Source of the DNA: a virus
Taxonomy: Duplodnaviria > Caudoviricetes
Virus record (IMG/VR): IMGVR_UViG_3300031760_005061
Coordinates: 32,065 to 96,064 of that record
Strand: one strand, 5' to 3'
Length of the DNA: 64,000 bases
Made by a program: the position numbers and the translations under genes. A model generated the notes under the pieces. The model saw nothing but the letters and a program-made list of their open reading frames with translations. It ran no database searches and had not been told where the DNA came from. Positions 1,696 to 64,000 of this stretch are shown here, in pieces (position 1 is the stretch's first letter; each line of letters opens with the position of its first letter).

Positions 1696-1698
1696 CAT

Positions 1699-2814: not shown

Positions 2815-2826
2815 GGAGGTGTAGTT

Positions 2827-4271: not shown

Positions 4272-4729
4272 GAAAATTTACAGCAATATACATCACCCTT
4301 GCCCTCTTGCTCTCAACAATTATGATAGCAAGGGCAACACGGCAAGATTGGATAGCGATACCCTCCGTAAACATAAGCGAGCGTTTGCAGTATGCAGACT
4401 TGAATATGGACACGCAGACAATTTGCGATAAGCGAGACCGAGCCGTTGCATACGATTACAGAGGGAGCATAAGCATAGCAGACCACAATCATCAAGGGTT
4501 TAAGAATTTACACAAAGTCAAGGTCGGGGACACGGCAACGGTTATACTGCACGGCAAGGTAACGCAATATCGGTGTATCCGCAAATTCAACGGCATTAAT
4601 AAGAAGGCATACTTAACCGACAACAATGGCAGAATAGTCGAGATTACAAAAAATCAAGTGATTATTTATACGTGTTTAAAGGGATATACACGGCGTATCG
4701 TAATCACGAAATGGCAAAGAATAAGGTAA
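4268..4729 (+). CDS. Sortase-like cysteine transpeptidase, membrane anchored
   Basis: N-terminal TM helix; ADHN..GF.NL..VKVGD (His), IIYTC (Cys) and downstream Arg. ATGA overlap with the previous stop. Confidence 0.65.
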   Translation: MRKFTAIYITLALLLSTIMIARATRQDWIAIPSVNISERLQYADLNMDTQTICDKRDRAVAYDYRGSISIADHNHQGFKNLHKVKVGDTATVILHGKVTQYRCIRKFNGINKKAYLTDNNGRIVEITKNQVIIYTCLKGYTRRIVITKWQRIR

Positions 4730-4745
4730 AATATGGAGGGATATT

Positions 4746-4922
4746 ATGGAATTTTGGGAAGCAATTGTTGAATGCGTAAACGCAATCATCGACGGCGTTA
4801 GCACATACGTGCATTCGCCGGAAGCAATTATCATCGACACCAGACTCGCAGATCTGGTCAAATACTGCTCAGACCAAGCAGTATATATTATAAGAGATTT
4901 TCTCGATGTGTTCGGGAGATAA
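4746..4922 (+). CDS. Small hypothetical protein (58 aa)
   Basis: GGAGG RBS then ATG GAA TTT TGG; open to TAA. Not in the ORF track. Confidence 0.55.
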   Translation: MEFWEAIVECVNAIIDGVSTYVHSPEAIIIDTRLADLVKYCSDQAVYIIRDFLDVFGR

Positions 4923-4951
4923 TAAAACTACAATTTTAAAGGAGGAATTTT

Positions 4952-5929
4952 GTGAAAGACTTTGATGTTTTTGACATAAAAGAAAAGTGGTTCAAAGAAA
5001 CCGCTCCTCAGAATTACGCGTCCGGTTCTACCGAAGGTGTTCCGGCTCGCACCCCTTCTATAGTTATAGATAAAGCAAACGACGCACTGTATATGTGCGC
5101 AATAGCAGACCCCACAGTATACAATACCGGCTGGAAGAAGTATGTTGTTGATGGTGGCGGCGGAGACTATGACTACGAGTTTGTTGTAGACGTAGACCCC
5201 TCGTCCTCTTCGATAACGCTGAGTCCCAGCGGTACTGGTATTACTTTAAAATCTAGCGACACTGTAAAGGTTACTCTTTCTAATGCAACAATTGCTTTAT
5301 TAGAGCAGGAGCAGTTAACGATTGTTGGAACCACATTTACTGGGTCTGCGGCAGCGTTTGGTAAAAAGATTGCGTACACATCGATGTCTGGTGTTGAGAG
5401 GACAATATCGAGTAGTATCATTGGTATAAATTATGGAGTAGTCGCTGCGAGAGAGGGTCAAGATCAGATTAATTTCAACCTTGTTATATATAATGCATCT
5501 GGAGGATTAGGCGTAGACTTTATTATGTCTACTAATCACACAATTACCATAACAGCGTCTCCAGACCAAAGCGGCAATTTTGTTTATCTACTGTCGGAGG
5601 AAAGCGGACGGGAAGTAGCAAGCTCTCTTGACGTAGCGCAAATCAGTCTGTCGGATACATTAAAAACAATCCTAACTCAGACCGGTAATGTTATTGATAA
5701 AGATACGTTTGAAGTAGAAGGAACGGTAGCAAGCTCTAATATTGTAATAGACACTACGGCTCCGAGCCAGACCGGGGACGAATACCATTTCACAATAAAA
5801 ACCGAAGATATATATTTTGATATCGGACAATTCGCTCACAGCTCTAACGAAACATATACATTGCTGGGTTATGTAGGTACTAACACATCTTCTTATCAGC
5901 CCGGTGTTATTATTCAACCGGCTTCTTAA
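4952..5929 (+). CDS. Hypothetical beta-rich, Ser/Thr-rich protein (possible virion decoration)
   Basis: 325-aa ORF, AGGAGG RBS, own terminator. Confidence 0.6.
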   Translation: MKDFDVFDIKEKWFKETAPQNYASGSTEGVPARTPSIVIDKANDALYMCAIADPTVYNTGWKKYVVDGGGGDYDYEFVVDVDPSSSSITLSPSGTGITLKSSDTVKVTLSNATIALLEQEQLTIVGTTFTGSAAAFGKKIAYTSMSGVERTISSSIIGINYGVVAAREGQDQINFNLVIYNASGGLGVDFIMSTNHTITITASPDQSGNFVYLLSEESGREVASSLDVAQISLSDTLKTILTQTGNVIDKDTFEVEGTVASSNIVIDTTAPSQTGDEYHFTIKTEDIYFDIGQFAHSSNETYTLLGYVGTNTSSYQPGVIIQPAS

Positions 5930-5937
5930 GTATAAAC

Positions 5938-5962
5938 AAAGGGGCGCGTAGTGCGCCCCTTT
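5938..5962 (+). terminator. Intrinsic terminator-like hairpin
   Basis: AAAGGGGCGC-gtagt-GCGCCCCTTT. Confidence 0.7.
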
Positions 5963-5987
5963 CACCTAATTATAGGAGGTGAAAACA

Positions 5988-8549
5988 ATAGAAAGCTTAA
6001 AGCAAAGCATTCTGAATAAGATTGCGCTTATTAAAGGGTTCGCGATAAACATCCTAAATAAACTTGCGGAAGAAAACGCTGGTTTTATAGGACATACTGT
6101 CGCAAAAATCGCAGAAGACATACTTAGTCTTTTCGGCGAAATAGATACGTTAACCGGCAACCCGAATGTTGCACAATACAAGGTGCGTAAATATACAATG
6201 GACACCAACGGTAACTATGGTAATCCGGTGGAAGAAATACATTCGTGGATATGGGATGAAGAAATATCTGTAGATACTGCGGAGTTAAGTACCGGATTTT
6301 CGTATAACAAAACATATCCGGGTTATTATGCCACTGGGACAATTAACGAAGACGGTAGTACCGTATTTGACGTATATATTAAGCGCAATACATACTCACT
6401 CAGTCTGGTAGTAACAGATAGTTTACATCCGGGATATATTATCGTTGATGGAGAAACCTACGAGTATACCTATGTTATTTCTTTATTATATGGACAAAAT
6501 GTGTCCATTGAACGTTATATTCCGTTATGCGATGGATATACATTTAACACGTGGGATCAAGCGGTGCCAAGTACAATGCCAGCAAGCAATGTGTTATTAA
6601 GAGCTACATGGACGACAAATACATACACGGTTTCATGGAATGTGGATGGCGTTATAACAACACAGACATATGAATATATGGCAACCATAGTACCTCCGCA
6701 GAATCCTTGGAAAGAGGGGTACACATTTACCGGATGGACTCCTTCGGTTGCTCAGACAATGCCGTACCAAAATTTGAGTTATGTGGCCGTATTTACACCC
6801 AATTTATACACATTAAATATTATATATCAAGCATGGGATGTGCTGGAGTTTGATGGTGTCATTCCATATGGATATGCTGGACAGGTTGAATATGATAGCT
6901 TCTTTAGTATACCATCTCCAACCGGCATTGGTAATGTAAACGGTAGCGATTATAATGTTTCCGGATACTATCCCGACCAGTCTATAATCGAGGGTGTTAT
7001 GCCGGCAGTCGAAGGATATACTTTTATTGTTACGTATTTTCCAGAAACCTATACAACCACTTGGGATGTAGATGGCAACCTTACTACCGAACAAGTTGTA
7101 TACCATCATTGGCCTGTTGGTATTCCAGATCCTACGAAAGAAGGGTATGTGTTTGATGGATGGTATCCTTATGTAAATATTCAACCGGCATATGATATCA
7201 CATATACAGCTCAATGGTATGAAAAAACATACCCGTATACTATTACTGTGTATACTATGAATGTCTTGGGAAACTATACGACACCAGCAACGTATACTTT
7301 TTACGGGGGAGCTGGAACGGAAATAAACGCAGAAAGTGTTGCTATAGATAGAGGTTGGATAACCGATTTGGATGGAGAGTTCTTTGATAGAGAGCATAGT
7401 GGTTATGACGCGATTGGAACTGTAGATCCAGAGCAAACCACCGAGCTAACTATCTATATCGGCAGAAACACTTTCATATTAACCTATCAGCAAAGATATG
7501 AAGACGATAGCGGGCATGATACGCCATATACTCAAATTATGTATACCGACACCGTGTATTTTGGATCCCCGGTAACAATGCCACCGGCGCCAAACGTAAA
7601 TGGATACTATTTTATATCATGGGATAACACAGATATTCATTCTGTACCTACATATAATGTAACATTTACGGCGCTATATAAAAAAACATACTCATTAAAG
7701 CTATTTTTAGATAGCGGAACGGCGACGTATGACTGGGAAGATGCAAGCTATGATAGTTCTAGCGATATATTAACGATTCGAGGACAGGGCGGCGTTGAGA
7801 TCCCGACAATCACAATGACGCTCGAAGGATATACCTTTGGCGGGTGGAATGTAGACTTGCCAGAAACTTTTTCGTATAGTAGCTACAGCGTGTCATACTC
7901 TTACAGGGCTCGATGGATTCCGCTTGTTCCTATAACGGCGACATATTATGCAACATACGGATATCTCTCACCAGACGAAGGCGATCCGGACGAAGACGAT
8001 CCGCGCATTATATACCTTCAAATAAAAAAAGAGTTTACCGGCCAGACGGGTGACACTGTGTTTGCCGATAGCGTTAAAATACCAAATGGAGAATTATGTG
8101 TAACTTTAGACACCGATGTTAGAAGCGGTGCGGGTACAACATATAACATAGTGGATAGTCTGCCGGCTGGTTCTGTAGTATATCCGCTTGAAAGGTCGGA
8201 TAACTGGATTAGAATCGGAACCAATAGGTGGATTGATTCGTTTTGGACTGACGATAATTATTATAGTTTGTTTACAACCGGAGGATGGCTTAATCCTAAC
8301 TTAGACTTTTGGAGTGCAAGTCAAAGTAGTTTCATACAAGATGAAATTGATGCATATCAAAGCCTATTTCCGGGGTGGAGAGTATATTGTCAATATGCTT
8401 TTGACACAGATAGTGCTATTGCATATGGTCCCGGCGATGTAGAGTATTTTACCAGCGGTATTATTACAACCGGCTCGTTAGGTCAAACAAATATTATGAT
8501 ACCACTTCGTAGATATAGAGAGAAAAATGGTGAGATTATACAGTTTTAA
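5988..8549 (+). CDS. InlB B-repeat (Flg_new) and SH3b domain protein
   Basis: Repeated P.KEGYTF.GW units; DVRSGAGTTYNIV...WIRIG SH3b motif. The GTG at 5979 lies inside the SD, so ATA 5988 is the likelier start. Confidence 0.7.
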   Translation: MESLKQSILNKIALIKGFAINILNKLAEENAGFIGHTVAKIAEDILSLFGEIDTLTGNPNVAQYKVRKYTMDTNGNYGNPVEEIHSWIWDEEISVDTAELSTGFSYNKTYPGYYATGTINEDGSTVFDVYIKRNTYSLSLVVTDSLHPGYIIVDGETYEYTYVISLLYGQNVSIERYIPLCDGYTFNTWDQAVPSTMPASNVLLRATWTTNTYTVSWNVDGVITTQTYEYMATIVPPQNPWKEGYTFTGWTPSVAQTMPYQNLSYVAVFTPNLYTLNIIYQAWDVLEFDGVIPYGYAGQVEYDSFFSIPSPTGIGNVNGSDYNVSGYYPDQSIIEGVMPAVEGYTFIVTYFPETYTTTWDVDGNLTTEQVVYHHWPVGIPDPTKEGYVFDGWYPYVNIQPAYDITYTAQWYEKTYPYTITVYTMNVLGNYTTPATYTFYGGAGTEINAESVAIDRGWITDLDGEFFDREHSGYDAIGTVDPEQTTELTIYIGRNTFILTYQQRYEDDSGHDTPYTQIMYTDTVYFGSPVTMPPAPNVNGYYFISWDNTDIHSVPTYNVTFTALYKKTYSLKLFLDSGTATYDWEDASYDSSSDILTIRGQGGVEIPTITMTLEGYTFGGWNVDLPETFSYSSYSVSYSYRARWIPLVPITATYYATYGYLSPDEGDPDEDDPRIIYLQIKKEFTGQTGDTVFADSVKIPNGELCVTLDTDVRSGAGTTYNIVDSLPAGSVVYPLERSDNWIRIGTNRWIDSFWTDDNYYSLFTTGGWLNPNLDFWSASQSSFIQDEIDAYQSLFPGWRVYCQYAFDTDSAIAYGPGDVEYFTSGIITTGSLGQTNIMIPLRRYREKNGEIIQF

Positions 8550-8568
8550 ATCAAGGAGACGATAATTT

Positions 8569-8946
8569 ATGAAAGAAGTACTTCTTTCAGTACTTAAGTG
8601 GGCGATTACCGCCTTACTTGCCGGCGGCGTTAGCTTTATCACCGCCCGGTATAAAATTCGCAAAGCTAAAAGCGAAGAAGCGGATCGCGCCATACAGGAT
8701 AAATTTGAAGCTCTGGAAGCAAAGGATGAGATTTTACAAGCAGCGATTCGCTCACTGCTACGACAAGAAATAATCGTAGCATACGAGAAATACACAGCGA
8801 TTGGATGGGCGCCGGTATATGTCAAGGACAATGTTCAAGAAATGTATGACTGCTATCATGCGATTGGAGGCAACGGAACTATTACACATCTTGTCGAGGA
8901 GTTTATGAATCTCCCAACAATGCCGAAGGAAAAATCTGAAACATGA
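8569..8946 (+). CDS. Lysis-cassette membrane protein (holin-like)
   Basis: N-terminal TM, coiled coil and Y..IGGNG motif; sits upstream of the lysin. Confidence 0.6.
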   Translation: MKEVLLSVLKWAITALLAGGVSFITARYKIRKAKSEEADRAIQDKFEALEAKDEILQAAIRSLLRQEIIVAYEKYTAIGWAPVYVKDNVQEMYDCYHAIGGNGTITHLVEEFMNLPTMPKEKSET

Positions 8947-9251
8947 AATTTCTTACGATTTCGGTAATCCTTAGTTTTGTAGCTTGCATTGTATTTACAG
9001 CAGTATGTCTTGTTCTTGGCTGTCTTGGATACGAAGTATCCGACACGCTTATCCAATATTTCTTCATCGTATTTGGCGTAGAGTTCGCATCTGCGGCTGC
9101 TATCCAAATCTTTAAATATAAAATCAAGAAACAGGAAACAAAAGATAATATTGATAATCTTAAAGAAAACGACTTGCCGGTTGAGCATGATGATGTAATC
9201 GGCGGATCGTCGGAAGATGATTATTACGACAGTGGAACCGTGTATGGATAA
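8943..9251 (+). CDS. Two-TM membrane protein (holin-like)
   Basis: Two hydrophobic helices; lysis cassette position. Confidence 0.55.
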   Translation: MKFLTISVILSFVACIVFTAVCLVLGCLGYEVSDTLIQYFFIVFGVEFASAAAIQIFKYKIKKQETKDNIDNLKENDLPVEHDDVIGGSSEDDYYDSGTVYG

Positions 9252-9287
9252 TACGTGGTTCCTTTCTTATTAAGGAGGTTTAGCCTA

Positions 9288-9686
9288 ATGCTTGAACTCA
9301 AAAATGTACTCATTGAGTGTCTTATCGCGGTTATTACTGTTACCGTACCTATCGTAACCAAGTTCTTAATCGCGTTCTTAAGGTCAAAGTCAACCGCAGT
9401 CAAAGAGACGGCGGCAACCGAAAACGAGCGTCGCATTCTCGAACAGATTGACCAAGCAGTAGAAGACTCCGTTGATTATGTTTCTCAGACTGTTGTTGAC
9501 ACACTGAAGTCGACCAATCAGTTTGATAAGGACGCACAGAGACAGGCGTTCCAGACCGCTCTCGTAACCACACTCAATGGCGTATCCGAAGAGGCGAGAA
9601 AGTTCTTATACGGCACGTATAACGATGTCACCGGTTTCCTTACAACCAAAATCGAAGCCGCCGTAAGACGTAACAAATTATTTTGA
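9288..9686 (+). CDS. Holin, LL-H-like
   Basis: N-terminal TM; AVEDSVDYVSQT and C-terminal KIEAAV motifs. Confidence 0.65.
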   Translation: MLELKNVLIECLIAVITVTVPIVTKFLIAFLRSKSTAVKETAATENERRILEQIDQAVEDSVDYVSQTVVDTLKSTNQFDKDAQRQAFQTALVTTLNGVSEEARKFLYGTYNDVTGFLTTKIEAAVRRNKLF

Positions 9687-9699
9687 GGAGGGCGTATGT

Positions 9700-10362
9700 A
9701 TGGCAAAATGTATGACCAAAACAGAATACCTCAAACAGGTAAAAGGGAAGAAGGTCGACACAGATGGCGTACCGGCAAATCAGCCGTTTCAGTGCGCCGA
9801 TCTTGTCAAGGATATGCTAAAAAAATGTTACGACATAGACTTCACGTTTACCCTCCCGGTTAAAAACCCTCACGGTTATGTTTACAGTTTATGGGAGAAC
9901 TTTGACAGCTATACCGCGTTACAGGGCGTGGCGGTAAGAATTAAAAACACCCCGAGATTTACACCCCAAGCTGGCGACATCGTGTTATGGAAACCTAACG
10001 CCAAAACGGAAAACGGTACTCCGTTAACCGGAGCCGCCGGACACACAGCGGCTGCTCTCGGCAAAAACACAGGGACTTCCAGATTCAAATCTCTGGATCA
10101 AAACTGGGGTGGAAAGTATTATGTTGCAGAAGTGAACCATTCCTACGACGGTATTTACGGCGTTGTAAGAATGCTTCTGAAATGCACCAAAGCTGACTTA
10201 AATGTACGCACTGGCCCCGGCACTAAATATCCGATAGCCAAAAAGGCAGACGGCGATGACTATGTTCTTCCGAAAGGAACCGTTGTTAAACCGATTGGAT
10301 ACGAAGGTAGTTGGGCGAAAATCGGTAAAGACCAGTGGGTATCAGCAAAATATCTTGACTAA
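9700..10362 (+). CDS. Endolysin, CHAP domain plus SH3b
   Basis: QCADL, PQAGDIVLW, GHTA, LDQNW (CHAP); LNVRTGPGT...WVSAKYL (SH3b). Confidence 0.9.
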   Translation: MAKCMTKTEYLKQVKGKKVDTDGVPANQPFQCADLVKDMLKKCYDIDFTFTLPVKNPHGYVYSLWENFDSYTALQGVAVRIKNTPRFTPQAGDIVLWKPNAKTENGTPLTGAAGHTAAALGKNTGTSRFKSLDQNWGGKYYVAEVNHSYDGIYGVVRMLLKCTKADLNVRTGPGTKYPIAKKADGDDYVLPKGTVVKPIGYEGSWAKIGKDQWVSAKYLD

Positions 10363-20576: not shown

Positions 20577-20583
20577 CTCCTTT

Positions 20584-20659
20584 GTCTCTCGTTATTTTTG
20601 ACATAAAGATTATAACACACCGCTTTGTTTCAAACGGGGTTGTTAACAAATTGTTTACA
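20584..20659 (-). promoter_or_regulatory. Promoter: TGTAAA-N7-TTAACA, 26 nt, TATAAT, then TAACGAGAGAC
   Basis: Same architecture as 35650-35725 and 57449-57499. Confidence 0.75.
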
Positions 20660-35635: not shown

Positions 35636-35649
35636 TTGAGCCCTCCTTT

Positions 35650-35725
35650 GTCTCTCGTTACTTTGTGTAGAAAGATTATAGCACATATTTCGTGCTATAA
35701 TCGGGTTGTTAATAAATTGTTTACA
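35650..35725 (-). promoter_or_regulatory. Promoter: TGTAAA-N7-TTAACA, 26 nt, TATAAT, then AAAGTAACGAGAGAC
   Basis: Near-copy of 20584-20659. Confidence 0.75.
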
Positions 35726-41446: not shown

Positions 41447-41518
41447 ATCATACCTCTCTTTCGTTTTTGTCTCTCGTTACTTTTGATGTAAAAAAAATAA
41501 AAGCGTTGTTTTATTGTA

Positions 41519-50600: not shown

Positions 50601-53600
50601 GGACTATAATGCCGGTTAAAATGTGCATTTCATTTCCTCCTTATGAAATTGGATTTCGTTTTGATTACCACATATCACTGTCGCAAGGACGACATATGTA
50701 GTAAATTCCGGTTTCTTCGTCGATGTCTAAATCAACGCCATACGGAGCGTTGATAATACTCTCTATAATGTCTTCGGTTTTACAAAGAGAGTATTTGTTC
50801 CAGACACCGCTTTTGTACATTACGGTTTCCGGTTCATTTTCGTTAAGGATTTCAATTACGGAATCACATCCGAGTTGTATTAAATGTTTTCTAGGCATTT
50901 TTGTCTCCTTTTGTTGTTTGATATATAACTTCGAAATTGGGGTAAAACCGTCCACGTTTTACCCGAAAACTATGTCGCCGAAGCAGGCATACTGGATGAT
51001 TACATCACCGATTTCGGAATCGATTTCATCCATATCGCCACGCCAGTGCTCATTTTCGATTGACATTTTAATTCCATTGGCGAGGTCGTCTGCGTTGAAA
51101 GAGTATATATCCGGTTCTTCGTCGTCGATTGTTTCCGTGTCAATCAGATGAACCGACTTTCCGTTTTCGAGAAGGCGAATCATCACTTCTTCGTATGTAG
51201 GAATTTCGTCCGGCTTTTCTTTCCGGAGTTCTGCACGAGCGACTTTCCAGTCCGCTGTAGTATTGTCGAGGCAAGCCCAGTAACCTATGCCGCCCTCAAG
51301 AGCGGAACTCAGAATATCGTCGATGTCTTCGTTGTTAAAATATAATGTGATGTCGATTTCGAGATTCATTTTTAATCCTCCGTTATGTTTTGAATTTTGA
51401 TTTCAACTTCTGAAAGCATTTTTTCGATATGTTCGAGATGAGCCTTAATTTCCTCAAGCGTCATTTTTGTTCTCCTTTCGTCCCTCGTTACTTTCTGCGG
51501 TTAAAAAGAAGAACTCTCTGAGTTCCTTTTCCATTTCAACCGGGTCTTCTTTTGCCATACATCCGAGCATAAGCAGCGCGAGGAATCCGAATAGCCATAT
51601 GAAATACATTGACGTTTTCCCCTTTCGATTTTATTTTGAAAGCAGTTTCATAATTGCGGTCTGTGCTTCAGCGGTGACCGCTTTTCTGATGAGCATTTCC
51701 TCATAATCGGAAACCTCGTATGTTGAGAGTTCTTCGCCGTTTTCGAGGCGAGTTTCATACTCTTCCATACACTGTCTCCAGTATGAGTCGTTGTCCAGAA
51801 CTGAGCAAATATTCGCGAGGCATTTTGCTCTGCACGCGATCTGTTCGTAGTCTTTCATATTGACTACCTTTCCGAGTTTTGCTTCTGACATAGTTCATTT
51901 CTCCTTTAAATTTTGATTTTTGATTTTATTTCCTCAGTAACATCTTCTTCGGTGAAGAAGTTACTGTGGTCGCCGATTTTAATTACTTTGCTGATTTCGA
52001 TTTTGTTTTCGTTTGCGGTTTTAAATGCGGTTTTGAGACCCGCTTCAATTACCGCGAAGAATATGAGTTTTTCCGGTTCACCGGATTTGTTTCCGTAAAT
52101 GTTAAAATAATCCATTTTTCAATCCTCGTAAAATATCATTTTTGAATACGATTTCACATCTGTAATCGCACATCCTTTGTCGATTAAAGATGATATAATT
52201 CCCGTGAGCACATCTGAGCTTGGAGCGATTGCCAAGCAGATTTCGTTTATAGAGTCGGGCATTCTGCCATAAATTATATACGCCATTTCCTCACCTCTTA
52301 TTGTAAACTGATTTCATTTCCGCATACAGCTCGCCGGTTTCGTTATCAAATATGGTTACCTTTTTGATTTCAAATCCGGCAAGTATTAGTGCCTCGATAG
52401 CATAATGGACATCGGTGTTTTCGCATTCGGTTCTGACTTCTATACTCCGCTTTGTAGCGTAGATGAAGTAGCCGATTTTAATAGTGTTTTCATTTCCGAT
52501 TGCTGCGTGGAGTGTTGTTTCAGTTTTCATTTGGTAACCACCTTTCAAATTCAATTTCGTTTTGAAATTCATCTGTGACATCCGAGTGACAAGTGATTTC
52601 CGCGATTTGCCACCCCTGTTCAAGAGCCGCTTTGATTAGCGGCTCGACTTCGTTTTTGGAAATTCCCATACCGCTAATCATATGGTCATCGCCGTTTGGG
52701 TCGATGGCGAAAACCACATAGTAATCTTCTCTTATCTTTGCCATACCGATTTTCCTTTCCGATTTTATTTTGTGATGTAGTAGTTTACGATTTCCCATTC
52801 TGTTACATCGCGTGATTCGAATGTATAGAACACAACCACGAGGTTGGTTCCGGCGGAGATGTATGAACTATACATTGTCCACAGATTTCCGTCTTCCGTT
52901 TCGATTTCAATTTCAAATTCGGATTCGAATTCGAAATTCGTTTCCGTTTTCGAAACGGATTTTACTGTCGCTTTCATTGCGACGAGTTCGCTGGGCGGCG
53001 GGGTTCGGAGTGCGGCGGTTGTTGAGATAATGCAGAGTGCGGCGAGGATTATGCAGATGATTTTCAATTTGAATTCCCCTTTCGGTTTTGTTTTGTCTCT
53101 CGTTACTTTACCATAACGAGATTGTTTTGTCAAGTGGTTTTGCAAATTTATTTTCAAATTCAATTTGGCTGTTCGTCAAACTCCATTTGACCACTGCTAC
53201 CCGTGGGAGATTTTAGCCTCGATTTCGTTTTCGTTTTCCTACTCATCCCATCGCGGAACTATCTCAAATAGGTATGTTGCTCCGCAAAATCGGTTTGCGA
53301 TTTTGTTTCCGGGCGTGACGGAGAGCCGTCGTCGTGGCACCTAACTGAATTTCGTTTTCGATTTTAGATTTCGTTGTCGCAGTCGTAGTCTTCCGGATTG
53401 TAGGTTTCCGGATAGAATTGATAGTGGTATTCGCGGTAGGCGGTTTCGAGGCTACAGCCAAATGTTTCGGCGTAGTCGTCGCACCACTCGAAGAAATTCG
53501 GGACTTGATTTTCTTTTTTGTTTTCGGTTTTCATTTTGCACCTCATTTTGTTTTATAAAGAAACGGAGCCCGATTATCTCGGACTCCGCCAAATCAAAAC

Positions 53601-55654: not shown

Positions 55655-55683
55655 TTGACAACCCGCGCCCGCTATGGTAATAT
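55655..55683 (+). promoter_or_regulatory. Sigma-A promoter
   Basis: TTGACA-N17-TAATAT with extended TG. Confidence 0.65.
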
Positions 55684-55749: not shown

Positions 55750-56949
55750 ATGACAAACAACAAACACAACAACCCCGCAACAACCCGCCCCGCGTCAATT
55801 CAACCGAGCGCGAAAGAACGCGCCCGCGCCGAGTATGACCGAGCGCGCGCCGACCGAGACCGCGCCCGCGCCGAGTATGACCGAGCGCGCGCCGAGTATA
55901 AGCGCACCCCGACCGAGACCGCCCGCACAAAGACCGAGACCGCCCGCGCCGAGTATGACCGAGCGCGCGCCGAGTATAAGCGCATACAAGCCCGCGAGCG
56001 CTCCCGCGAGCGCTCCCGCATAAAGACCGCCGGAAAGCGCGACGCGGTCAAGCCGTTACCGGCGGAGCGGTCTATAATACCCTACCGCGCCCGCGTCAAC
56101 CCATTACCCGCCGAGACCGACCGAGAGAGACGCGCCCGCCGTTTAACCGACGCGGTCTATACCTTTGGCGGTTGTAATGGTAACAACCGCGAGTATTTGC
56201 AGTTATGCGCGGTTGATATAGTGCATACAAGTTTAACGGCGGGAGCGCGGAGCGGTCAACAATTATTTATTGATATGTTGAAGTTGTGCCACTACTCAAC
56301 AACCGCCGATTATAGCGATACAACCGCATTTAACCGAGCGCACGCGGTTTTACTTGAATTGATTTCAACCGCCCGCGTCAACGTTTATGTTGATATGACC
56401 GCCGACGAAAGACCGCCCGCCGAGACCGAGACCGAGAGACGCGCCCGCGCCCGTAACGATGCATATGCGGTCTGGTATGGATACCCCGCCGACCGCGCAT
56501 TTAAGGCGGTCAATGAAGTAATGTATCAATATCGCCGTAATGATAAAAAAGCGGTTGATATGGACTTATACCGAGAGAAGAACAAACACCGCGCCCGTAG
56601 TAATGGAACGGCGCATATTGACGCGGAGACCGACCGCGCCGCATTTATTCAAACATTAAACCCGCGCCGCCTTGAAATATTGATGTTGATTAAAGACGGA
56701 CTAAAACAAGTTGATATTGCGGAAAAGTTGAATATATCCCCGTCGGCAGTAAATCAACATATAAACGCGATTAAAGAACAATTCAAGCGGTTTAATGCCG
56801 ACCGCCCCGCGCCGACTGAAACCGCCGACCGCCCCGCCCCGCTATTATTCCATTTTACTCCGCCCGCGCCCCGCTCCGACGCGCTCACGCTCCGCGAGTA
56901 TAACGGCGCGCGCCTAGTTGACGCGGTTGAAACCTTTAAAACTATGTAA
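55750..56949 (+). CDS. Protein with C-terminal sigma70 region 4/LuxR-type HTH and N-terminal RAEYDRA repeats
   Basis: LNPRRLEIL....DGLKQVDIAEKLNISPSAVNQHINAIK; AAAGGTGG RBS. Confidence 0.7.
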   Translation: MTNNKHNNPATTRPASIQPSAKERARAEYDRARADRDRARAEYDRARAEYKRTPTETARTKTETARAEYDRARAEYKRIQARERSRERSRIKTAGKRDAVKPLPAERSIIPYRARVNPLPAETDRERRARRLTDAVYTFGGCNGNNREYLQLCAVDIVHTSLTAGARSGQQLFIDMLKLCHYSTTADYSDTTAFNRAHAVLLELISTARVNVYVDMTADERPPAETETERRARARNDAYAVWYGYPADRAFKAVNEVMYQYRRNDKKAVDMDLYREKNKHRARSNGTAHIDAETDRAAFIQTLNPRRLEILMLIKDGLKQVDIAEKLNISPSAVNQHINAIKEQFKRFNADRPAPTETADRPAPLLFHFTPPAPRSDALTLREYNGARLVDAVETFKTM

Positions 56950-57499: not shown

Positions 57500-57716
57500 T
57501 AAACCAGACAATAAAAATTTTTGTTATGTCACAAAAATTTAAAGCTCGCTCCTACGGAGCTCGAAGGGTCCCTTGTTTCCATTTATATATAACTTCGAAA
57601 ATGGGGTAAAACCGTACACGCTTTGTGTACGATTTTTCCGGAAAACCGTCCACGGGGGCGGTACTATTTTGGCCGTAAAGTAACGAGGGACGAATTTAAG
57701 GGGGATAGATATTTTT

Positions 57717-59240
57717 TTGAAAAAGTACATATCTGATGTAGTAGATATGTCCGGGGTAGATCGAGGCAAGTTTAACTTAATAGTCAGCCCGTGCGGGAGT
57801 GGCAAGACGTACTTTTGCGCGAACACTCTTACGGACTACTACCGAGATGTTTTGCCCGGGGAGATACTATTTGTCACCAGCCGCAGTTTAGCCGCCAACC
57901 AGCTTGTGCGCGATAGCGACGTAAGCGAGAGGTTTGACATAGGCGATACGTTTTTAAAGCGTGCGTGGATGGGCAAAGACGACTTAAGCTACCTTAATAC
58001 AAAAGGATTACAAGTAACCACCTACGACAAGGTTATAAAGCTTTTACTTACGGACGGCTACGACGCCCTGTTCGGAGTAAAGATACTTATATTTGATGAG
58101 TGCCACGCGCTGTTCAGCGATCGCTTTATAAGAGGTATGGATTTCTTGTGCTACTGGATTCACGTAGCGGTCAAGACACAGTCACATTTAGTCTTTGGTC
58201 TTACGGCTACCCCGGGCATAATTTACGCCAACTCGCGCCAGTGGTGTACGGAAATAAACGAGCTTTGCGACACCGGCGATTTAGACGGCTACAAGGCGAA
58301 GAATTTGTGGATAGTAGACTTTACCGCTTTTCCGGAGTTTTACAACAAAGAACTCAAGAACAACGGCAAGACGATAATTATGTGCGACTCCATACGCTCT
58401 ACCGCCAACGTGCTTTACAACTCTATTTACGGCTCAAAGCTTTTGGTCAGCAAGTCCGGCAGCTCGGACGGCAAGACTTGCTACAACCCGGCGGATATGG
58501 ACTACATACGCGAAGCCATAATAACCCGGGGCGTTTTACCGGACGACGTAAAGGTTTTAGTAGCCACCGGTACCATAAGAGAAGGGTTCAGCTTTGTAGA
58601 GAAAAGCGGCGTACGCAATGTAGTGTGCTGCTTTACGGACGAAATGAGCATAACCCAGCTTATGGGCAGATGCCGCTACGACATAGACAATCTCGTAATT
58701 ATCAAAAAGGATAACATATACGACTCCGCCGGATACGTTCCTTATATTAAGTTCCAGCACGACCTGTTTGACAGGTTTGAAGCCGGCGTAGGCGAAGAGT
58801 GGTTTGAGGGTATTTGCGACTTAGTTAAGTGTGGCGTTAACGACATACAGAGATTCTCGTCAGACAAGATCAGTCTTCATAAGGTTACGAAGAAATATGA
58901 AGACCGTCGCAAGGATACTCCGACGATAGCCAGCCGCTCAGCAAAGAATCAGATGAAGAAATATATATATAACACATACATTGTTAAACCCGGAATGAGC
59001 AAGGACGATATGTCTAAGCGCTTAATTGATTCCGGCAACAAACAGGACATAGTCGATAAAGCCGTTGAGCTTGGACTGTTCGGAGAGGAAACCGGCATGC
59101 TGTCTTGCAACAGGATAATCAACATCTGCGCCAAGGAGATGGGGTTTGAGGTAGACCGCAGCCACAAAAGAAGGGAGAACGGCAAGTTCGTCCGCTATAC
59201 CATTTTGAAGGAGGTGCAGAATGCAAACAAACAAACTTGA
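57717..59240 (+). CDS. Superfamily 2 (DExH) helicase-like protein
   Basis: SPCGSGKT, IFDECH, LTATP, VAT..IREG, QLMGRCR. Confidence 0.85.
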   Translation: MKKYISDVVDMSGVDRGKFNLIVSPCGSGKTYFCANTLTDYYRDVLPGEILFVTSRSLAANQLVRDSDVSERFDIGDTFLKRAWMGKDDLSYLNTKGLQVTTYDKVIKLLLTDGYDALFGVKILIFDECHALFSDRFIRGMDFLCYWIHVAVKTQSHLVFGLTATPGIIYANSRQWCTEINELCDTGDLDGYKAKNLWIVDFTAFPEFYNKELKNNGKTIIMCDSIRSTANVLYNSIYGSKLLVSKSGSSDGKTCYNPADMDYIREAIITRGVLPDDVKVLVATGTIREGFSFVEKSGVRNVVCCFTDEMSITQLMGRCRYDIDNLVIIKKDNIYDSAGYVPYIKFQHDLFDRFEAGVGEEWFEGICDLVKCGVNDIQRFSSDKISLHKVTKKYEDRRKDTPTIASRSAKNQMKKYIYNTYIVKPGMSKDDMSKRLIDSGNKQDIVDKAVELGLFGEETGMLSCNRIINICAKEMGFEVDRSHKRRENGKFVRYTILKEVQNANKQT

Positions 59241-59400
59241 TGATAACTATGATACATCGTTTGAAGAGTTGGTGATTGATGCAGGATATAACCCCAATCT
59301 TTGTGACGATGATTCGGAATATAAAACAGATCTTGATGTCAGATACGACGAATATCTAGAAATGGTTAAGGAATACTCTGACGGAAATATTGAGTACTAA
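59221..59400 (+). CDS. Small acidic protein (59 aa)
   Basis: AAGGAGGTG RBS; ATG 59221 to TAA 59400, read by hand. Confidence 0.6.
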   Translation: MQTNKLDDNYDTSFEELVIDAGYNPNLCDDDSEYKTDLDVRYDEYLEMVKEYSDGNIEY

Positions 59401-59414
59401 ACGGGGGTGGTAAC

Positions 59415-62198
59415 ATAGCTAAGAACAAAGGAGTATATATTCCCAAGATTGAGTCGAAGGATTTATATATAGCGAACTACGAGTTACACAAAGACTACAC
59501 ACTGAAAAGATCAGACGGCAAAACTAACTATAAAAGGTTTAAGGCCGGACTGGACTACAGTCTCGACCTTATCAAAATGAGAGAAGTATATGAGTCGGTA
59601 TACAGGAATAGAAGGTTCTCGGAAAAGTTCAAGGGCAAGGAGTATTGTCCGTTTGTAATTAACGTAACATTCAACTTTAACGCAAAGGAGTACAACAAAG
59701 CCGGTTCCAATACCTATGTTGACATAAAGCGTGACATTAAGGAGCTCGAGTTTGATGACTGTGTATGCGTGGTGGATGGCGAGCTTGCCGGAATAATTAC
59801 AAACAAAGAGTTTGAAAATCCGGTGGACGAAAAAATACTCGGCAAATATTTCTACATAAAAGATAATAAATATTGTGCAAAAACAAACATTAATACAATA
59901 AAAAATGTTTCAGATATAAGAAAAGAATTATATACGCACGGATTTGATATAGACGGCGTGCATTATGTTCGATACAAAAGATCCGCCGGGTCTGCCCGGG
60001 TAGGCCGCTGCCTGTTCATAGCCGAGCCCCTGTTCGCCAAGATGCGCAAGTGGGAGAACTGTGGTATCAAGGTTGAGCCGGGTGGCGAGATAGACTTGGC
60101 GGCGTACGAGTCTTACATATCTCTGACGTCGTCCAGTATAATCGACACCGTAACCATTGAACCGTCTAATATATTAGTCATCGACGACTTCACCAGCGTG
60201 TTTGACGATGACGTCGTATCTGTTACGGAGTCGAGCGGAGAGCTCGAGTCTACATACACAAGGACTACTATAGAGAACGCCATATGGGACGGACAGTCGC
60301 TTCTGGACGAGTCAATTATTCCGGAGCAGTACAAAGACAAGGGAATGCTGTTGCTGAGAAACCGCTTCTTTAAGTCGTGCTGCTTTAACGCGAACATACA
60401 GCAGTGGTTTGCCGACAACAACATTACCGACGTCAAGCAGCTTAACGGGTTCACTACGGCGAGCTCGATAGAGGACGTCAAGATGATCACCACGCCTTCG
60501 AGCATCAAGTATGTTAAGTTTGGCACGCTCGAGCAGTGGATGGACAGTCTCAATCCGGAGTCCGGCGGAGATGTGTTCGGTTTGGTTAAGTACGAGAAAG
60601 AACAGAAGTACTTCGGCGGGCGCATGACGCAGTCGCACTACCAGCTTATCAACAGCATCCAGCTCAGTCGACCGGAAGTCGACGCGTTGCTCAAGCCGAC
60701 GTTTGACTTTATGACTCTTGTTAAGGAAGATCCGGCAGTATTGAGACACTGGATTAAGTTCGACATAAACAAGATCAGCGACATCGCTCCGGCGGAGTCA
60801 AAGATGGATGTTGTGTATAAGCTGATGTCAATCAACCCGGAGTTCTGTAAAACCAAGATGTACTACGACTTCAGACAGGACTTCTTAAAATCGTTCACGA
60901 AAAATCTAAAGTGCGGCCATGTGTTTGTTAACGGCAACTACTCCACTCTGTGCGGTAACCCAATATCAATGCTTAAGAGCGCCATAGGAAAATTTGACGG
61001 GGTGTCGGAGTTTGAAGTAGGCACCGTATACACAACAAGGTTTGGCTGGGATAAAAAGATACTCGCGTCGAGAAGCCCGCATATTACAGCATCAAATGTA
61101 CTCATTACAACGAATAAGTACCATCCGGATGTTAGTAAGTATATGAACGCCACTCCGGAGATTATATACATCAACTCGATCAACGAGAACATCTTGCAGA
61201 AGCTCGCCGGATGCGACTTCGACTCAGACACCGTTATGATTACGGATAACGAGGTTTTGATCAATGCTGCCAGCCGCAACGATAAAAGGTTCAAAGTCGC
61301 GGTGTGTAATGTGGGCGGAGTCAAGCGCAAAAGAAAATATACGCCGCAAGACCTCGCAGACCTTGACATAAAAACCAGCAAGAACCTTATAGGAGAAATA
61401 GTGAACCTGTCACAAGTGCTGAACAGTATTATATGGGACAGGCTGGCGGACGGAGCCAAGCTTCAAGATATTGAAGGTATATATCTTGATGTGTGTAAGC
61501 TGAGTATTCTGAGCGGCATAGCGATAGACAGAGCTAAGCGTGAGTTTGTGATTAACGACGCAAGGGAAATTAAGAAGATACGCACGAAGTATCACATCGA
61601 AACCGATGACGGCAAACAGGTTAACCCGAACTTCTTTAAACACATCTCTATGCTTAAGGGTTATTACAATCCGGAGAAGAAGGCATACTTAAAACACGAT
61701 ACCGCAATGGACTATCTTATTACCAGTGTTAACAGCTATAGGGCGTCAAGAAATCATAAGAATGCAAAAAACGAGTTTGCCGAACTGTCGGATATCATCA
61801 ACAAAGATTTGATGGACTACAGCCAAGTAAACTACAAACAGATTAAGCGCGTGATATCGATGGTCGACAAAATGAGTGCAGACATCTCGGCGGTGTACAG
61901 CAGCAGTAAGACCAAAGACCAAGACAAACACTTTGAGGCGGACGCTATTCGCCAAGACTGTGTAGAGAGTATCGGAAAACTTGTAATGAACAACAGCACA
62001 ATGATTGCGTTACTGAAGACTCTTGAGAAACCGGAACACGCACACCATAAGAAGATTATTACATACATTCTGTTCTCATATCCCAACACATCGTTTTTTG
62101 ATGTGTTACTCAAGAGTAGAAAACCGATCGATTGTATTGAAGAAAATCCGGACGGCGACATTGAAATATACGGAGTAAAGTTTCAGTATATCAGATAA
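59415..62198 (+). CDS. YonO-like single-subunit (double-psi barrel) phage RNA polymerase
   Basis: YKRSAGSARVGRCLFI, WDGQSL, RSPH, LAGCDFDSD catalytic motif, AIDRAK. Frame is open back to ATA 59415 after GGGGGTGG. Confidence 0.85.
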   Translation: MAKNKGVYIPKIESKDLYIANYELHKDYTLKRSDGKTNYKRFKAGLDYSLDLIKMREVYESVYRNRRFSEKFKGKEYCPFVINVTFNFNAKEYNKAGSNTYVDIKRDIKELEFDDCVCVVDGELAGIITNKEFENPVDEKILGKYFYIKDNKYCAKTNINTIKNVSDIRKELYTHGFDIDGVHYVRYKRSAGSARVGRCLFIAEPLFAKMRKWENCGIKVEPGGEIDLAAYESYISLTSSSIIDTVTIEPSNILVIDDFTSVFDDDVVSVTESSGELESTYTRTTIENAIWDGQSLLDESIIPEQYKDKGMLLLRNRFFKSCCFNANIQQWFADNNITDVKQLNGFTTASSIEDVKMITTPSSIKYVKFGTLEQWMDSLNPESGGDVFGLVKYEKEQKYFGGRMTQSHYQLINSIQLSRPEVDALLKPTFDFMTLVKEDPAVLRHWIKFDINKISDIAPAESKMDVVYKLMSINPEFCKTKMYYDFRQDFLKSFTKNLKCGHVFVNGNYSTLCGNPISMLKSAIGKFDGVSEFEVGTVYTTRFGWDKKILASRSPHITASNVLITTNKYHPDVSKYMNATPEIIYINSINENILQKLAGCDFDSDTVMITDNEVLINAASRNDKRFKVAVCNVGGVKRKRKYTPQDLADLDIKTSKNLIGEIVNLSQVLNSIIWDRLADGAKLQDIEGIYLDVCKLSILSGIAIDRAKREFVINDAREIKKIRTKYHIETDDGKQVNPNFFKHISMLKGYYNPEKKAYLKHDTAMDYLITSVNSYRASRNHKNAKNEFAELSDIINKDLMDYSQVNYKQIKRVISMVDKMSADISAVYSSSKTKDQDKHFEADAIRQDCVESIGKLVMNNSTMIALLKTLEKPEHAHHKKIITYILFSYPNTSFFDVLLKSRKPIDCIEENPDGDIEIYGVKFQYIR

Positions 62199-62402: not shown

Positions 62403-62606
62403 TTGGTAGAAATCACAAGAGAAGAGGCTGAGATTATCAGACTCGAGCTCGGCGACGATATAACGATCGCCACGACTTGCAAACAGAAGGGCGGCAGACG
62501 CAAGAAGAGGTACATGGAGGAAAACCGTACCAGCATGAGGCTGCTCAGACAAATACGCAGAGGCGATTATGGGAGGCGCGATGAGTCAGACAGAAAGAAG
62601 AAATGA
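62403..62606 (+). CDS. Small basic hypothetical protein
   Basis: TTG start after AAGGATGG; KKRYMEE motif. Confidence 0.55.
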   Translation: MVEITREEAEIIRLELGDDITIATTCKQKGGRRKKRYMEENRTSMRLLRQIRRGDYGRRDESDRKKK

Positions 62607-63561
62607 TGAATCATTCACCGATTATTTTGTAAGGTTATTTGAGCATAAGAAGTTGTACAACCTTAACTGCCAAGATATAGCAGAACTGCTCAACGCCGAG
62701 TCCGGAGAGGAATATACCGAATCAAAGTGGCGCAAGGAATACGCCGCATTTAACAGAGGAAGACTGTACGAAAGAAACCAGATGGAGTCCGGTGTGGCTA
62801 CGAGGATTCTCGCATTAAGCGACTTTCATTATCCCTTCCAGCTTCCTCAAGAAACATTTAAAGAGTATTGCGGACAGATAGACGTCCTCGTAATTAACGG
62901 CGATCTGTTTGATATGCAGAGCATCTCGAAATTCCAGAAGGCATACAGAATAAACTTCATGGAAGAGTTGATAGGATGTCGTCAGTATACGATTGACTTG
63001 ATCGAATACCTTAGTCCTAAGCGCGTAGTATTTACATCCGGCAATCACGAAAAGAGAATGTCGACATATCTCCAGAAAAATCTCGATGCAGAGATTAAGG
63101 AGCTTATGCCGGAAACAGCGCTTGACTTAATTGTTAACGACGGGTTCTATCATTACGATAAAAGGAAAAGAAGTAAGACATGGTACGAGCCGATATGCAA
63201 TCTGTTTGATAATATCTCCATAGAGTATGACGGCAGCTGGTATGTCAAGATCGGCAAAACAATCTTTGCTCATCCGTCTACATATTCCAGCGGAATGCTC
63301 AAGACGGCAGAGAAAGCCATAGAGTGGGCATATAGAAATATCAGAGACTTCGACTGTATGGTTATGGCTCACACGCATAAGCTCGGTAGCTACATACAGG
63401 GCGACGCTTATCTGTTCGAACAGGGTTGTCTGTGCAAGACAGAAGAAATGCTCTACATGGACGGAAAACTTACTCTTCCGCAGCAGAAAGGTTTTGTGCT
63501 GATTGCTCAAGACAAGAACGGAAGTTTGATGTACGATAAGTGCAAACTTGTTCAGTTATGA
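62581..63561 (+). CDS. Metallophosphoesterase with N-terminal helical (HTH-like) domain
   Basis: LSDFH, NGD, GNHE, AH, AHTH. Confidence 0.85.
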   Translation: MSQTERRNDESFTDYFVRLFEHKKLYNLNCQDIAELLNAESGEEYTESKWRKEYAAFNRGRLYERNQMESGVATRILALSDFHYPFQLPQETFKEYCGQIDVLVINGDLFDMQSISKFQKAYRINFMEELIGCRQYTIDLIEYLSPKRVVFTSGNHEKRMSTYLQKNLDAEIKELMPETALDLIVNDGFYHYDKRKRSKTWYEPICNLFDNISIEYDGSWYVKIGKTIFAHPSTYSSGMLKTAEKAIEWAYRNIRDFDCMVMAHTHKLGSYIQGDAYLFEQGCLCKTEEMLYMDGKLTLPQQKGFVLIAQDKNGSLMYDKCKLVQL

Positions 63562-63583: not shown

Positions 63584-63868
63584 ATGAATAGAGACGAATT
63601 TGTAAGGAAAGTGGCGGATAAATACAACGTCAATATCAAAGACACTAAATTATGGTTCGACGCATTCGTCGACGTTCTCGCAGAGTCGGTAACCGAGGAC
63701 GATATAAAGATAAGGAACTTCGGCAACTTCGAGCTTCGCACAATGAAGCCCAAGATCGCGAGGAACCTTAACGACAATACAGAGGTACACGTGCCGGCGA
63801 GAAAGAAGCTCTACTTCGTGCCGTGTCCCAAAATTGCAGAAAAGATTAAATCCTTACCGGTAGAATAA
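63584..63868 (+). CDS. hup: HU/IHF-family DNA-binding protein
   Basis: MNRDEF...IRNFGNF....K..ARN......VPA.....F.P. Confidence 0.9.
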   Translation: MNRDEFVRKVADKYNVNIKDTKLWFDAFVDVLAESVTEDDIKIRNFGNFELRTMKPKIARNLNDNTEVHVPARKKLYFVPCPKIAEKIKSLPVE

Positions 63869-63897
63869 TACAAACGACCGGAAACTGCATCGGCTCA

Positions 63898-63945
63898 GTT
63901 ATAGTTTTCTGTTACCACCCCCTTTGACGGAAGACAACTTATAAC
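63898..63945 (+). ncRNA. Candidate 3'-UTR sRNA hairpin with C-rich anti-SD loop
   Basis: Stem GTTATA-GTT-TTCTGTTA / TGACGGAA-AAC-TATAAC; loop CCACCCCCTT. Confidence 0.5.
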
Positions 63946-63952
63946 CGACTAA

Positions 63953-63988
63953 ATAGCGCTCTGCAATAGCGGAGCGCTATATTTCTTT
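63953..63988 (+). terminator. Intrinsic terminator
   Basis: ATAGCGCTCTGC-aata-GCGGAGCGCTAT then a T-rich tail. Confidence 0.75.
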
Positions 63989-64000
63989 AATACGGAGTGA

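What the first reader, a model, noticed from the sequence alone, without database searches (positions are those of the whole stretch)
63898..63988. hup 3'-UTR hairpin carries a perfect 13-nt antisense to the RNA polymerase translation start
Seen: TGTTACCACCCCC (63910-63922) is the exact reverse complement of GGGGGTGGTAACA (59403-59415), the SD and first base of the predicted RNAP start. CCACCCCCTT is exposed in the loop and a terminator follows. The same seed matches the unusual AAGGGGG(TG) SDs of the 53628-54029 gene (10 nt), the primase-helicase (9 nt) and the SF2 helicase. Established: C-rich-loop sRNAs repress Firmicute mRNAs by SD pairing. Inference: a 3'-UTR-derived sRNA giving feedback shut-off of the phage RNAP and replication genes through a dedicated SD class. 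I know of no description of this.
Basis: partly seen in the sequence, partly recalled or inferred. Interest (0 to 1): 0.8.

Follow-up and report, generated by a model that had tools for sequence, protein, structure and literature searches.

The report
Anti-ribosome-site hairpin after phage hup gene
An RNA hairpin just after a phage's HU gene displays a near-copy of the ribosome's mRNA-docking sequence that matches the translation start of the phage's own RNA polymerase gene better than any other gene start, so it may switch that gene off, but this rests on one genome and no expression data.

Summary
63910-63922 (+) is the exact reverse complement of 59403-59415. It sits in a plus-strand-specific hairpin (63898-63945) with a fully exposed 10-nt C-rich loop, followed by a strong intrinsic terminator.

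The target is the Shine-Dalgarno (SD) sequence plus the first base of an AUA start codon. The gene encodes a YonO/QDE-1-type two-barrel RNA polymerase, confirmed here by fold.

- The loop is a near-copy of the 16S rRNA 3' end, with U changed to C, so it prefers GGGGG-type SDs.
- Pairing extends well past 13 nt: 22 bp over 59398-59421 and an 11-bp helix with 59447-59457.
- This gene start ranks first of 130 as a predicted target.
- The flanks add more pairing than chance (2 of 300 shuffles; 0 of 129 natural contexts).

Limits:
- A 13-mer alone is not significant genome-wide (about 0.8 such matches expected per genome).
- Other sites reach similar raw duplex energies.
- The proposed "SD-class regulon" is not supported.
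- No accessible relative carries both the hairpin and the target, so covariation could not be tested.
- No expression data could be obtained.

Verdict: a plausible but unproven 3'-UTR riboregulator of the phage RNA polymerase (about 0.4). The main rival is an ordinary 3'-end hairpin plus terminator with coincidental complementarity (about 0.35).

The parts
63584..63868 (+). hup gene (HU-family DNA-binding protein, 94 aa). It is the counterpart of SPbeta yonN.
   Evidence: Pfam PF00216 E 4e-18 and phrog_379. Synteny with SPbeta-type phages.
63898..63945 (+). Plus-strand-specific RNA hairpin in the hup 3' UTR. The 10-nt loop at 63915-63924 reads CCACCCCCUU.
   Evidence: Folds at -12.8 kcal/mol, z -4.0 on the + strand, against z -1.6 and an undefined fold on the minus strand. 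Loop unpaired probability is at least 0.9.
63910..63922 (+). 13-nt perfect antisense core: 5 nt of the 5' arm plus 8 nt of the loop.
63890..63926 (+). Extended pairing region of the candidate regulator. Blocks are 63890-63900, 63902-63906, 63910-63922 and 63923-63926.
   Evidence: Intermolecular pairs in the cofold minimum-energy structure.
63953..63990 (+). Intrinsic terminator: 12-bp stem, tetraloop and U tract.
   Evidence: -21.5 kcal/mol, z -6.1.
59398..59421 (+). Primary target. It spans the stop codon of the 59-aa gene, the extended SD GGGGGUGG, the AUA start and codons 2-3 of the RNAP gene. 22 of 24 nt are paired.
59447..59457 (+). Second target helix in codons 11-15 of the RNAP gene. 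It forms 11 bp, 3 of them G-U, with 63890-63900.
59415..62198 (+). YonO/QDE-1-type single-chain two-barrel RNA polymerase gene, 927 aa from an AUA start.
   Evidence: phrog_8308 E 9e-99 from residue 4. Some homologues carry PF05183. G599, D601, D603, S604 and D605 are invariant in the alignment. The AF2 model (pLDDT 88.6) matches QDE-1 at E 4e-17, RDR2, and phage RNAPs P32 gp64 and phi14:2 gp66.
59221..59400 (+). 59-aa gene whose stop codon lies 14 nt before the RNAP start, and inside the predicted duplex.

Best explanation
The hup 3' UTR carries a riboregulator. A stable hairpin presents, in a 10-nt single-stranded loop, a mimic of the 16S rRNA anti-SD tail (CACCCCCUU against CACCUCCUU).

Proposed mechanism (all steps inferred):
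- The U-to-C change makes the loop pair perfectly with GGGGG-type SDs and poorly with ordinary GGAGG SDs.
- The loop nucleates on the extended SD of the YonO-type RNA polymerase gene, and pairing spreads into the 5' arm.
- The final duplex covers 59398-59421 (stop codon of the upstream small gene, SD, AUA start, codons 2-3). A second helix covers codons 11-15.
- This blocks 30S binding at a gene that already depends on a strong SD, because its start codon is the weak AUA.
- The RNA could act in cis on the long helicase-RNAP-hup transcript once its 3' end has been made. It could also act in trans as a fragment of about 100 nt ending at the terminator.
- Either way, polymerase synthesis is limited after the operon has been fully transcribed.

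Shown: the sequences, the fold, the predicted energetics, the target ranking and the identity of the genes.
Inferred: that the RNA accumulates, that pairing occurs in vivo and that it represses.
For: - Exact 13-nt complementarity.
- Strand-specific hairpin with an exposed loop, followed by a terminator.
- The loop prefers GGGGG over GGAGG SDs (-12.2 against -5.3 kcal/mol). It binds the RNAP-type extended SD more tightly than the 16S tail does (-22.7 against -16.7).
- The RNAP TIR is first of 130 targets with opening energies included and by cofold (-26.8 against the next at -15.5). It also gives the best raw duplex of 7,923 sense-transcript windows.
- Flank pairing beyond the core exceeds 298 of 300 flank shuffles and all 129 natural TIR contexts. 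This test is independent of how the finding was picked.
- There is no extended DNA identity, so it is not an inverted duplication.
- Elsewhere in the non-coding DNA, nearly all CC[C/T]CC motifs lie opposite an SD on the other strand. This one does not.
- Family-wide weak start codons (AUA, ACG, AUU, UUG) make the gene SD-dependent.
- Precedents: C-rich regions of RoxS/FsrA act on SDs (PMC8216469), and the icaR 3'-UTR anti-SD motif does so too (PMC3868564).
Against: - There is only one genome and no covariation. Relatives at 62% identity or less have no such hairpin between HU and the recombinase. The 85% relative has a different SD but no hup on its contig.
- No expression data were available.
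- Genome-wide, about 0.8 intergenic matches of 13 nt or more to some TIR are expected by chance.
- Raw duplexes nearly as strong occur elsewhere: -27.2 at + strand 52591, and -24.8 and -24.5 in other mRNAs.
- Full pairing needs about 10.6 kcal/mol of stem opening.
- No promoter for an independent sRNA was found.
- SPbeta shows no clear analogue.
Confidence: 0.4

Rival explanations
1. This is an ordinary operon end. The first hairpin protects the mRNA 3' end or serves as a processing site, and the terminator insulates the hup operon from the next module. The complementarity to the RNAP start is coincidence, helped by the fact that any C/U-rich loop pairs with G-rich SDs.
For: - The look-elsewhere expectation is about 0.8 per genome for 13-mers.
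- Top duplex scores with z of -3.4 to -4.9 are found in every relative, at unrelated places.
- Other mRNA sites come within 2.5 kcal/mol.
- The element is absent from all accessible relatives.
- No Rfam family matches.
Against: - A 10-nt loop is odd for a purely protective hairpin.
- The loop matches the universal 16S tail at 8 of 9 positions and sits exactly on the match.
- The flanks add about 12-15 kcal/mol beyond chance.
- The best target is a TIR, not a random site.
Confidence: 0.35
2. The hairpin is a cis-acting leader element for the downstream module (recombinase plus structural genes). It could be part of the late-promoter or leader region used by the phage polymerase, or an antitermination (nut/put-like) hairpin that governs read-through of the terminator. 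In SPbeta the YonO promoter and an unannotated ncRNA lie downstream of the HU gene yonN.
For: - Synteny with SPbeta-type phages: small gene, yonO, HU, non-coding region, then late genes.
- Forrest et al. 2017 (PMC5467207) place the YonO start site upstream of yonK and of an unannotated ncRNA.
- The hairpin lies directly upstream of a terminator and about 190 nt before the next gene.
Against: - No sequence or structural similarity to the SPbeta gap was found.
- The YonO promoter sequence is unknown, so nothing can be matched.
- This model does not explain the complementarity to the RNAP start. It is, however, compatible with the main explanation if the phage polymerase itself makes the RNA.
Confidence: 0.15
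3. It is a DNA-level site: an attP or recombination site for the adjacent tyrosine recombinase, or an operator repeated in inverted orientation at the two loci.
For: - The element lies just upstream of a tyrosine recombinase gene.
- Some relatives have tRNA genes at this position.
- The 13-mer occurs exactly twice.
Against: - G-U pairs make the structure RNA- and strand-specific.
- No tRNA or tRNA fragment is present here.
- There are only two copies and no further similarity around them.
- No host junction could be examined.
Confidence: 0.04

Closest known systems
icaR 3'-UTR anti-SD motif of Staphylococcus aureus (PMC3868564)
   Same: A C-rich anti-SD motif (UCCCCUG there) sits in an mRNA 3' UTR of a Firmicute-type system. 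It pairs with an SD region and blocks ribosome loading. It can act within one RNA molecule.
   Different: In icaR the target is the SD of the same monocistronic gene. Here the hup TIR is not a good target. The target lies 4.5 kb upstream at another cistron, in a phage, and the pairing is much longer.
C-rich-region sRNAs RoxS/RsaE and FsrA (PMC8216469)
   Same: Exposed C-rich loops pair with G-rich SD regions. The layout is a hairpin followed by a terminator.
   Different: Those are independent chromosomal genes with their own promoters and several C-rich regions. No Rfam match was found here, there is a single C-rich loop, and no promoter was found.
Phage P1/P7 c4 antisense RNA (own knowledge; named in the review PMC12197685)
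   Same: A phage RNA is processed from the same operon as its target. It uses short loop complementarity to occlude a ribosome-binding site of a phage gene.
   Different: c4 lies upstream of its target and controls an antirepressor in an immunity circuit of a Gram-negative phage. There is no sequence relation.
SPbeta yonP-yonO-yonN locus (PMC5467207)
   Same: The gene order matches: small gene, two-barrel RNAP, HU, then a non-coding region before the late genes. The RNAP gene has a non-AUG start and a G-run SD.
   Different: The SPbeta gap is 1.7 kb. It has no evident exposed-loop complement to the yonO start, only 7-nt C-rich matches.

Membership tests
C-rich-loop trans-acting sRNA (RoxS/RsaE type) | C-rich motif presented in a single-stranded loop | tested here: met
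   Loop CCACCCCCUU has unpaired probability of at least 0.9.
C-rich-loop trans-acting sRNA (RoxS/RsaE type) | Predicted pairing that covers the SD or start codon of a target mRNA | tested here: met
   22 bp over 59398-59421. This TIR ranks first of 130.
C-rich-loop trans-acting sRNA (RoxS/RsaE type) | Sequence and structure homology to a described family | tested here: not met
   Rfam 15 scan at E up to 10 gave only a sub-threshold terminator-like hit.
C-rich-loop trans-acting sRNA (RoxS/RsaE type) | A discrete stable transcript, from its own promoter or by processing | not testable with these tools
   No sigma-70-like promoter was found.
3'-UTR anti-SD element (icaR type) | Anti-SD motif located in the 3' UTR, between the stop codon and the terminator | tested here: met
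   hup stop at 63868, motif at 63915-63924, terminator at 63953-63990.
3'-UTR anti-SD element (icaR type) | Pairs with the SD of its own gene | tested here: not met
   The hup TIR is not among the 20 best targets. The RNAP TIR may lie on the same polycistronic RNA, but that is not shown.
Intrinsic (Rho-independent) terminator | GC-rich stem-loop followed by a U tract on the transcribed strand | tested here: met
   12-bp stem with 7 GC pairs, then ATTTCTTT.
YonO/QDE-1-type two-barrel RNA polymerase (the target gene) | Double-psi beta-barrel polymerase fold | tested here: met
   AF2 model pLDDT 88.6. Foldseek matches QDE-1 at E 4e-17, TM about 0.5 over about 880 columns, plus RDR2 and phage two-barrel RNAPs.
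YonO/QDE-1-type two-barrel RNA polymerase (the target gene) | Metal-binding aspartate triad motif (DxDGD type) | tested here: met
   G599, D601, D603, S604 and D605 are invariant in 25 homologues. The motif is a DxDSD variant.
YonO/QDE-1-type two-barrel RNA polymerase (the target gene) | Direct sequence-profile match to Pfam RdRP or to a solved structure | tested here: not met
   No Pfam hit for this protein even at E 10, and none in PDB by sequence or by profile. Some homologues carry a precomputed PF05183 hit.

The most novel reading that the evidence does not exclude
The phage encodes a 16S anti-SD mimic RNA whose single U-to-C change retargets it from ordinary GGAGG SDs to rare GGGGG SDs. 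The RNA is made as the last part of the RNAP-hup operon, or by the phage polymerase itself from a late promoter as in SPbeta. It shuts off translation of the AUA-initiated YonO-type polymerase. This would be a built-in negative-feedback timer for a phage RNA polymerase, with weaker effects on the few other GGGGG-SD genes.
Probability: 0.12. Interest if true: 0.75.

Novelty: new variant of a known kind. Interest (0 to 1): 0.45.

Why it matters
Regulation of YonO-type polymerases, which drive late transcription in SPbeta-like phages, is essentially unknown. Phage riboregulators are barely described outside a few Gram-negative models.

If real, this would be a compact and easily testable example of a 3'-UTR element controlling a phage's own polymerase by mimicking the ribosome's anti-SD tail. 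It would also show how a one-base change in that mimic creates a private SD 'address'. The system needs only a two-plasmid reporter with compensatory mutations.

If it is coincidence, it is a useful caution. A perfect 13-nt antisense match to an SD is expected about once per 100-kb phage genome.

Tried and rejected
Comparative route, mostly blocked:
- IMG/VR, JGI metagenome and GTDB genome scans were run with the RNAP, recombinase, phosphoesterase and HU proteins. They gave one 99% fragment (L007, same SD), one 85% fragment (L008, different SD, no hup), one 93% fragment (L018, no hup) and many relatives at 62% or less without the hairpin.
- A 19-nt loop pattern found nothing in IMG/VR.
- blastn against GenBank phages found nothing.
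- Our-findings look-ups added only context.

Readings rejected:
- SD for an antisense ORF: no start codon or ORF follows the motif on the minus strand.
- Inverted duplication: no DNA identity beyond the 13-mer.
- Self-regulation of hup, or control of the recombinase TIR: neither is among the top targets.
- tRNA remnant: none detected.
- Anti-TIR elements in relatives: only chance-level hits were found, for example L009 inside a coding region and L013 inside the recombinase gene at a typical extreme-value score.
- An analogue in SPbeta or BUCT082: none convincing.

Method notes:
- A first whole-RNA duplexfold ranking was discarded, because long loose duplexes with crude opening costs are meaningless.
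- A hairpin census was too noisy to use as a denominator.

Full report
CONTEXT. The window is the last 64 kb of a 96,064-bp IMG/VR virus record. Its two ends share 127 bp, so the assembly is circular, and window 63874-64000 equals genome 1-127. The standard genetic code gives 93% coding density, with strong Firmicute-type SDs throughout.

The local gene order on the + strand is:
- an SF2 helicase (57717-59240);
- a 59-aa gene (59221-59400);
- a 927-aa protein (59415-62198);
- a metallophosphoesterase (62581-63561);
- HU (63584-63868);
- the hairpin and the terminator;
- then, across the junction, a tyrosine recombinase and the structural module.

Homologues occur in Clostridia MAGs and genomes, and in phages of about 100-135 kb.

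THE TARGET GENE. The 927-aa protein has no direct Pfam or PDB sequence hit. Several lines still identify it as a polymerase:
- It belongs to phrog_8308.
- Some homologues carry PF05183.
- G599, D601, D603, S604 and D605 are invariant in the alignment.
- Its AlphaFold model (pLDDT 88.6) matches QDE-1 at E 4e-17. It also matches plant RDR2 and the phage two-barrel polymerases P32 gp64, P74 gp62 and phi14:2 gp66.

The locus is syntenic with SPbeta yonP-yonO-yonN(HU). YonO is the late-gene polymerase of SPbeta (PMC5467207).

The start codon is AUA at 59415:
- The frame is closed by TGA at 59391, and AUA is the only plausible near-cognate codon before codon 7.
- The PHROG profile aligns from residue 4.
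- Relatives have ATG (L017), ATT (L005/L014), TTG (L006/L011) or ACG (L008) at the same aligned codon.
- The model places beta-strands at residues 7-13.

An internal AAAGGAG plus ATT at 59439 remains a weaker alternative. It also lies inside the region bracketed by the predicted pairing.

THE OBSERVATION. It is confirmed in every particular.
- The hairpin at 63898-63945 is strand-specific, with z -4.0 on the + strand against -1.6 on the minus strand.
- Its 10-nt loop is essentially always unpaired.
- The terminator that follows is the strongest in the neighbourhood.

(a) The loop is an anti-SD mimic. CACCCCCUU differs from the universal 16S tail CACCUCCUU by one U-to-C change. In duplex calculations it binds GGGGG-type SDs far better than GGAGG-type SDs (-12.2 against -5.3 kcal/mol). 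It also binds the RNAP-type extended SD better than the 16S tail does (-22.7 against -16.7).
(b) The complementarity is longer than 13 nt. In the cofold minimum-energy structure the blocks are as follows:
- 63923-63926 pairs with 59398-59401, which includes the stop codon of the upstream gene.
- 63910-63922 pairs with 59403-59415.
- 63902-63906 pairs with 59417-59421.
- 63890-63900 forms an 11-bp helix with 59447-59457.
(c) Elsewhere in the non-coding DNA, nearly all CC[C/T]CC motifs lie opposite an SD on the other strand. This one does not.

IS IT MORE THAN CHANCE? The answer is mixed.
For this hairpin taken alone, 0.4% of composition-matched 23-mers reach 13 nt against any of 130 TIRs. With the loop fixed and random flanks, 0.18% do so.
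The look-elsewhere cost is large:
- Shuffling all intergenic segments gives about 0.8 matches of 13 nt or more to some TIR per genome.
- Raw duplex energies close to the observed one occur at unrelated places: -27.2 at + strand 52591 against the RNAP TIR, and -24.8 and -24.5 for the seed against other mRNAs.
- Every relative has a 'best hit' of similar z.

In favour of a real interaction:
- The RNAP TIR is the best of 130 once opening energies are counted (-11.5 against -6.3).
- It is an outlier in cofold ddG (-26.8; others average -4.5 with sd 3.3, and the next is -15.5).
- It gives the top raw duplex in the whole sense transcriptome.
- The most useful test is independent of how the finding was selected. 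With the 20-nt core held fixed, the native flanks give more pairing than 298 of 300 flank shuffles, and more than all 129 natural TIR contexts into which the core was transplanted.
- DNA-level alignment shows no identity beyond the 13-mer. The extra pairing is therefore not a decayed inverted duplication.

COMPARATIVE EVIDENCE. This could not be obtained.
- The 99% fragment L007 has the same SD.
- The 85% relative L008 has a quite different SD region and ACG at the start position, but its contig stops inside the RNAP gene.
- Relatives at 62% or less have short HU-recombinase spacers, other hairpins or tRNA genes at this position. None has a significant complement to its own RNAP start.
- SPbeta and BUCT082 show only 7-nt C-rich matches.

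MECHANISM. I commit, at about 0.4, to a translational repressor.
- The exposed anti-SD mimic nucleates on GGGGGUGG of the RNAP TIR.
- Pairing then invades the 5' arm of the hairpin at a cost of about 10.6 kcal/mol.
- The duplex occludes the SD, the AUA start and the upstream stop codon, so both de novo initiation and coupled re-initiation would be hit.
- It may act in cis on the polycistronic RNA once the 3' end is made, or in trans as a fragment of about 100 nt.
- No promoter for an independent sRNA is seen. A trans form would therefore need processing, or a phage-polymerase promoter, which is unknown.

The wider 'GGGGG-SD regulon' is not supported, because the other such genes rank 8th or lower.

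RIVALS.
- An ordinary 3'-end hairpin plus terminator with coincidental pairing (0.35).
- A leader or antitermination element for the late module, as suggested by the SPbeta late promoter and ncRNA downstream of yonN (0.15). This one is compatible with the main model.
- A DNA-level site (0.04).

COMPARISON WITH KNOWN SYSTEMS.
- It would work like the icaR 3'-UTR anti-SD element (PMC3868564) and like the C-rich-region sRNAs RoxS and FsrA (PMC8216469).
- In phage logic it resembles P1 c4 RNA.
- It is not a sequence member of any described RNA family.
- It fails the icaR criterion of targeting its own gene.
- If real, it is a new variant of a known kind.

Noticed in passing
window 59391-59441: The YonO-type RNAP gene appears to start at AUA. 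Relatives use ACG, AUU, UUG or AUG at the same aligned codon, each behind a strong SD. This family-wide use of weak start codons suggests selection for low or regulated initiation.
   Followed up: partly
window 63874-64000 = genome 1-127: The window end is a 127-bp assembly overlap of a circular genome. The hairpin and terminator are followed, after about 25 nt, by the SD and GTG or ATG start of a tyrosine recombinase (genome 134-1120). That recombinase is conserved at 51-62% identity in more than 150 IMG/VR phage contigs, most of those listed 75-137 kb.
   Followed up: partly
L107 (BUCT082) 1716-10346; L109 (SPBc2) 2962-8110: The gene order small protein, YonO, (x), HU, non-coding gap, YonK, metallophosphoesterase in SPbeta-type phages matches the order in this Clostridia-type phage. 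Only the phosphoesterase has moved.
   Followed up: partly
L024, L028, L030, about 100-200 nt upstream of position 6001: In several relatives, tRNA genes occupy the spacer just upstream of the conserved recombinase. That is where this phage has the hairpin and terminator.
   Followed up: no
window about 20577-20595, 35643-35661, 41466-41480, 53092-53106: A repeated motif of about 13-18 nt (TAACGAGAGACAAAGGAG on the minus strand) lies upstream of several minus-strand genes. It may be a shared 5'-UTR or promoter-proximal element.
   Followed up: no
L011 2615-3589 and 5521-8499: One relative carries an extra partial copy (residues 1-318, 48% identity) of the RNAP N-terminus upstream of the full gene, including a repeat of the TIR.
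   Followed up: no
window 55655-55683 and 57613-57662: A near-consensus extended -10 promoter precedes the sigma-like gene (55750-56949). Two tandem terminator-like hairpins precede the SF2 helicase, so the promoter of the helicase-RNAP-hup operon is not obvious.
   Followed up: no
window 1677-1701: The gene at 1699 has a TIR (AAACGGGGGTATAACAT then ATG) that closely resembles the RNAP TIR (AAACGGGGGTGGTAAC then ATA). It is nevertheless only a weak predicted target.
   Followed up: no
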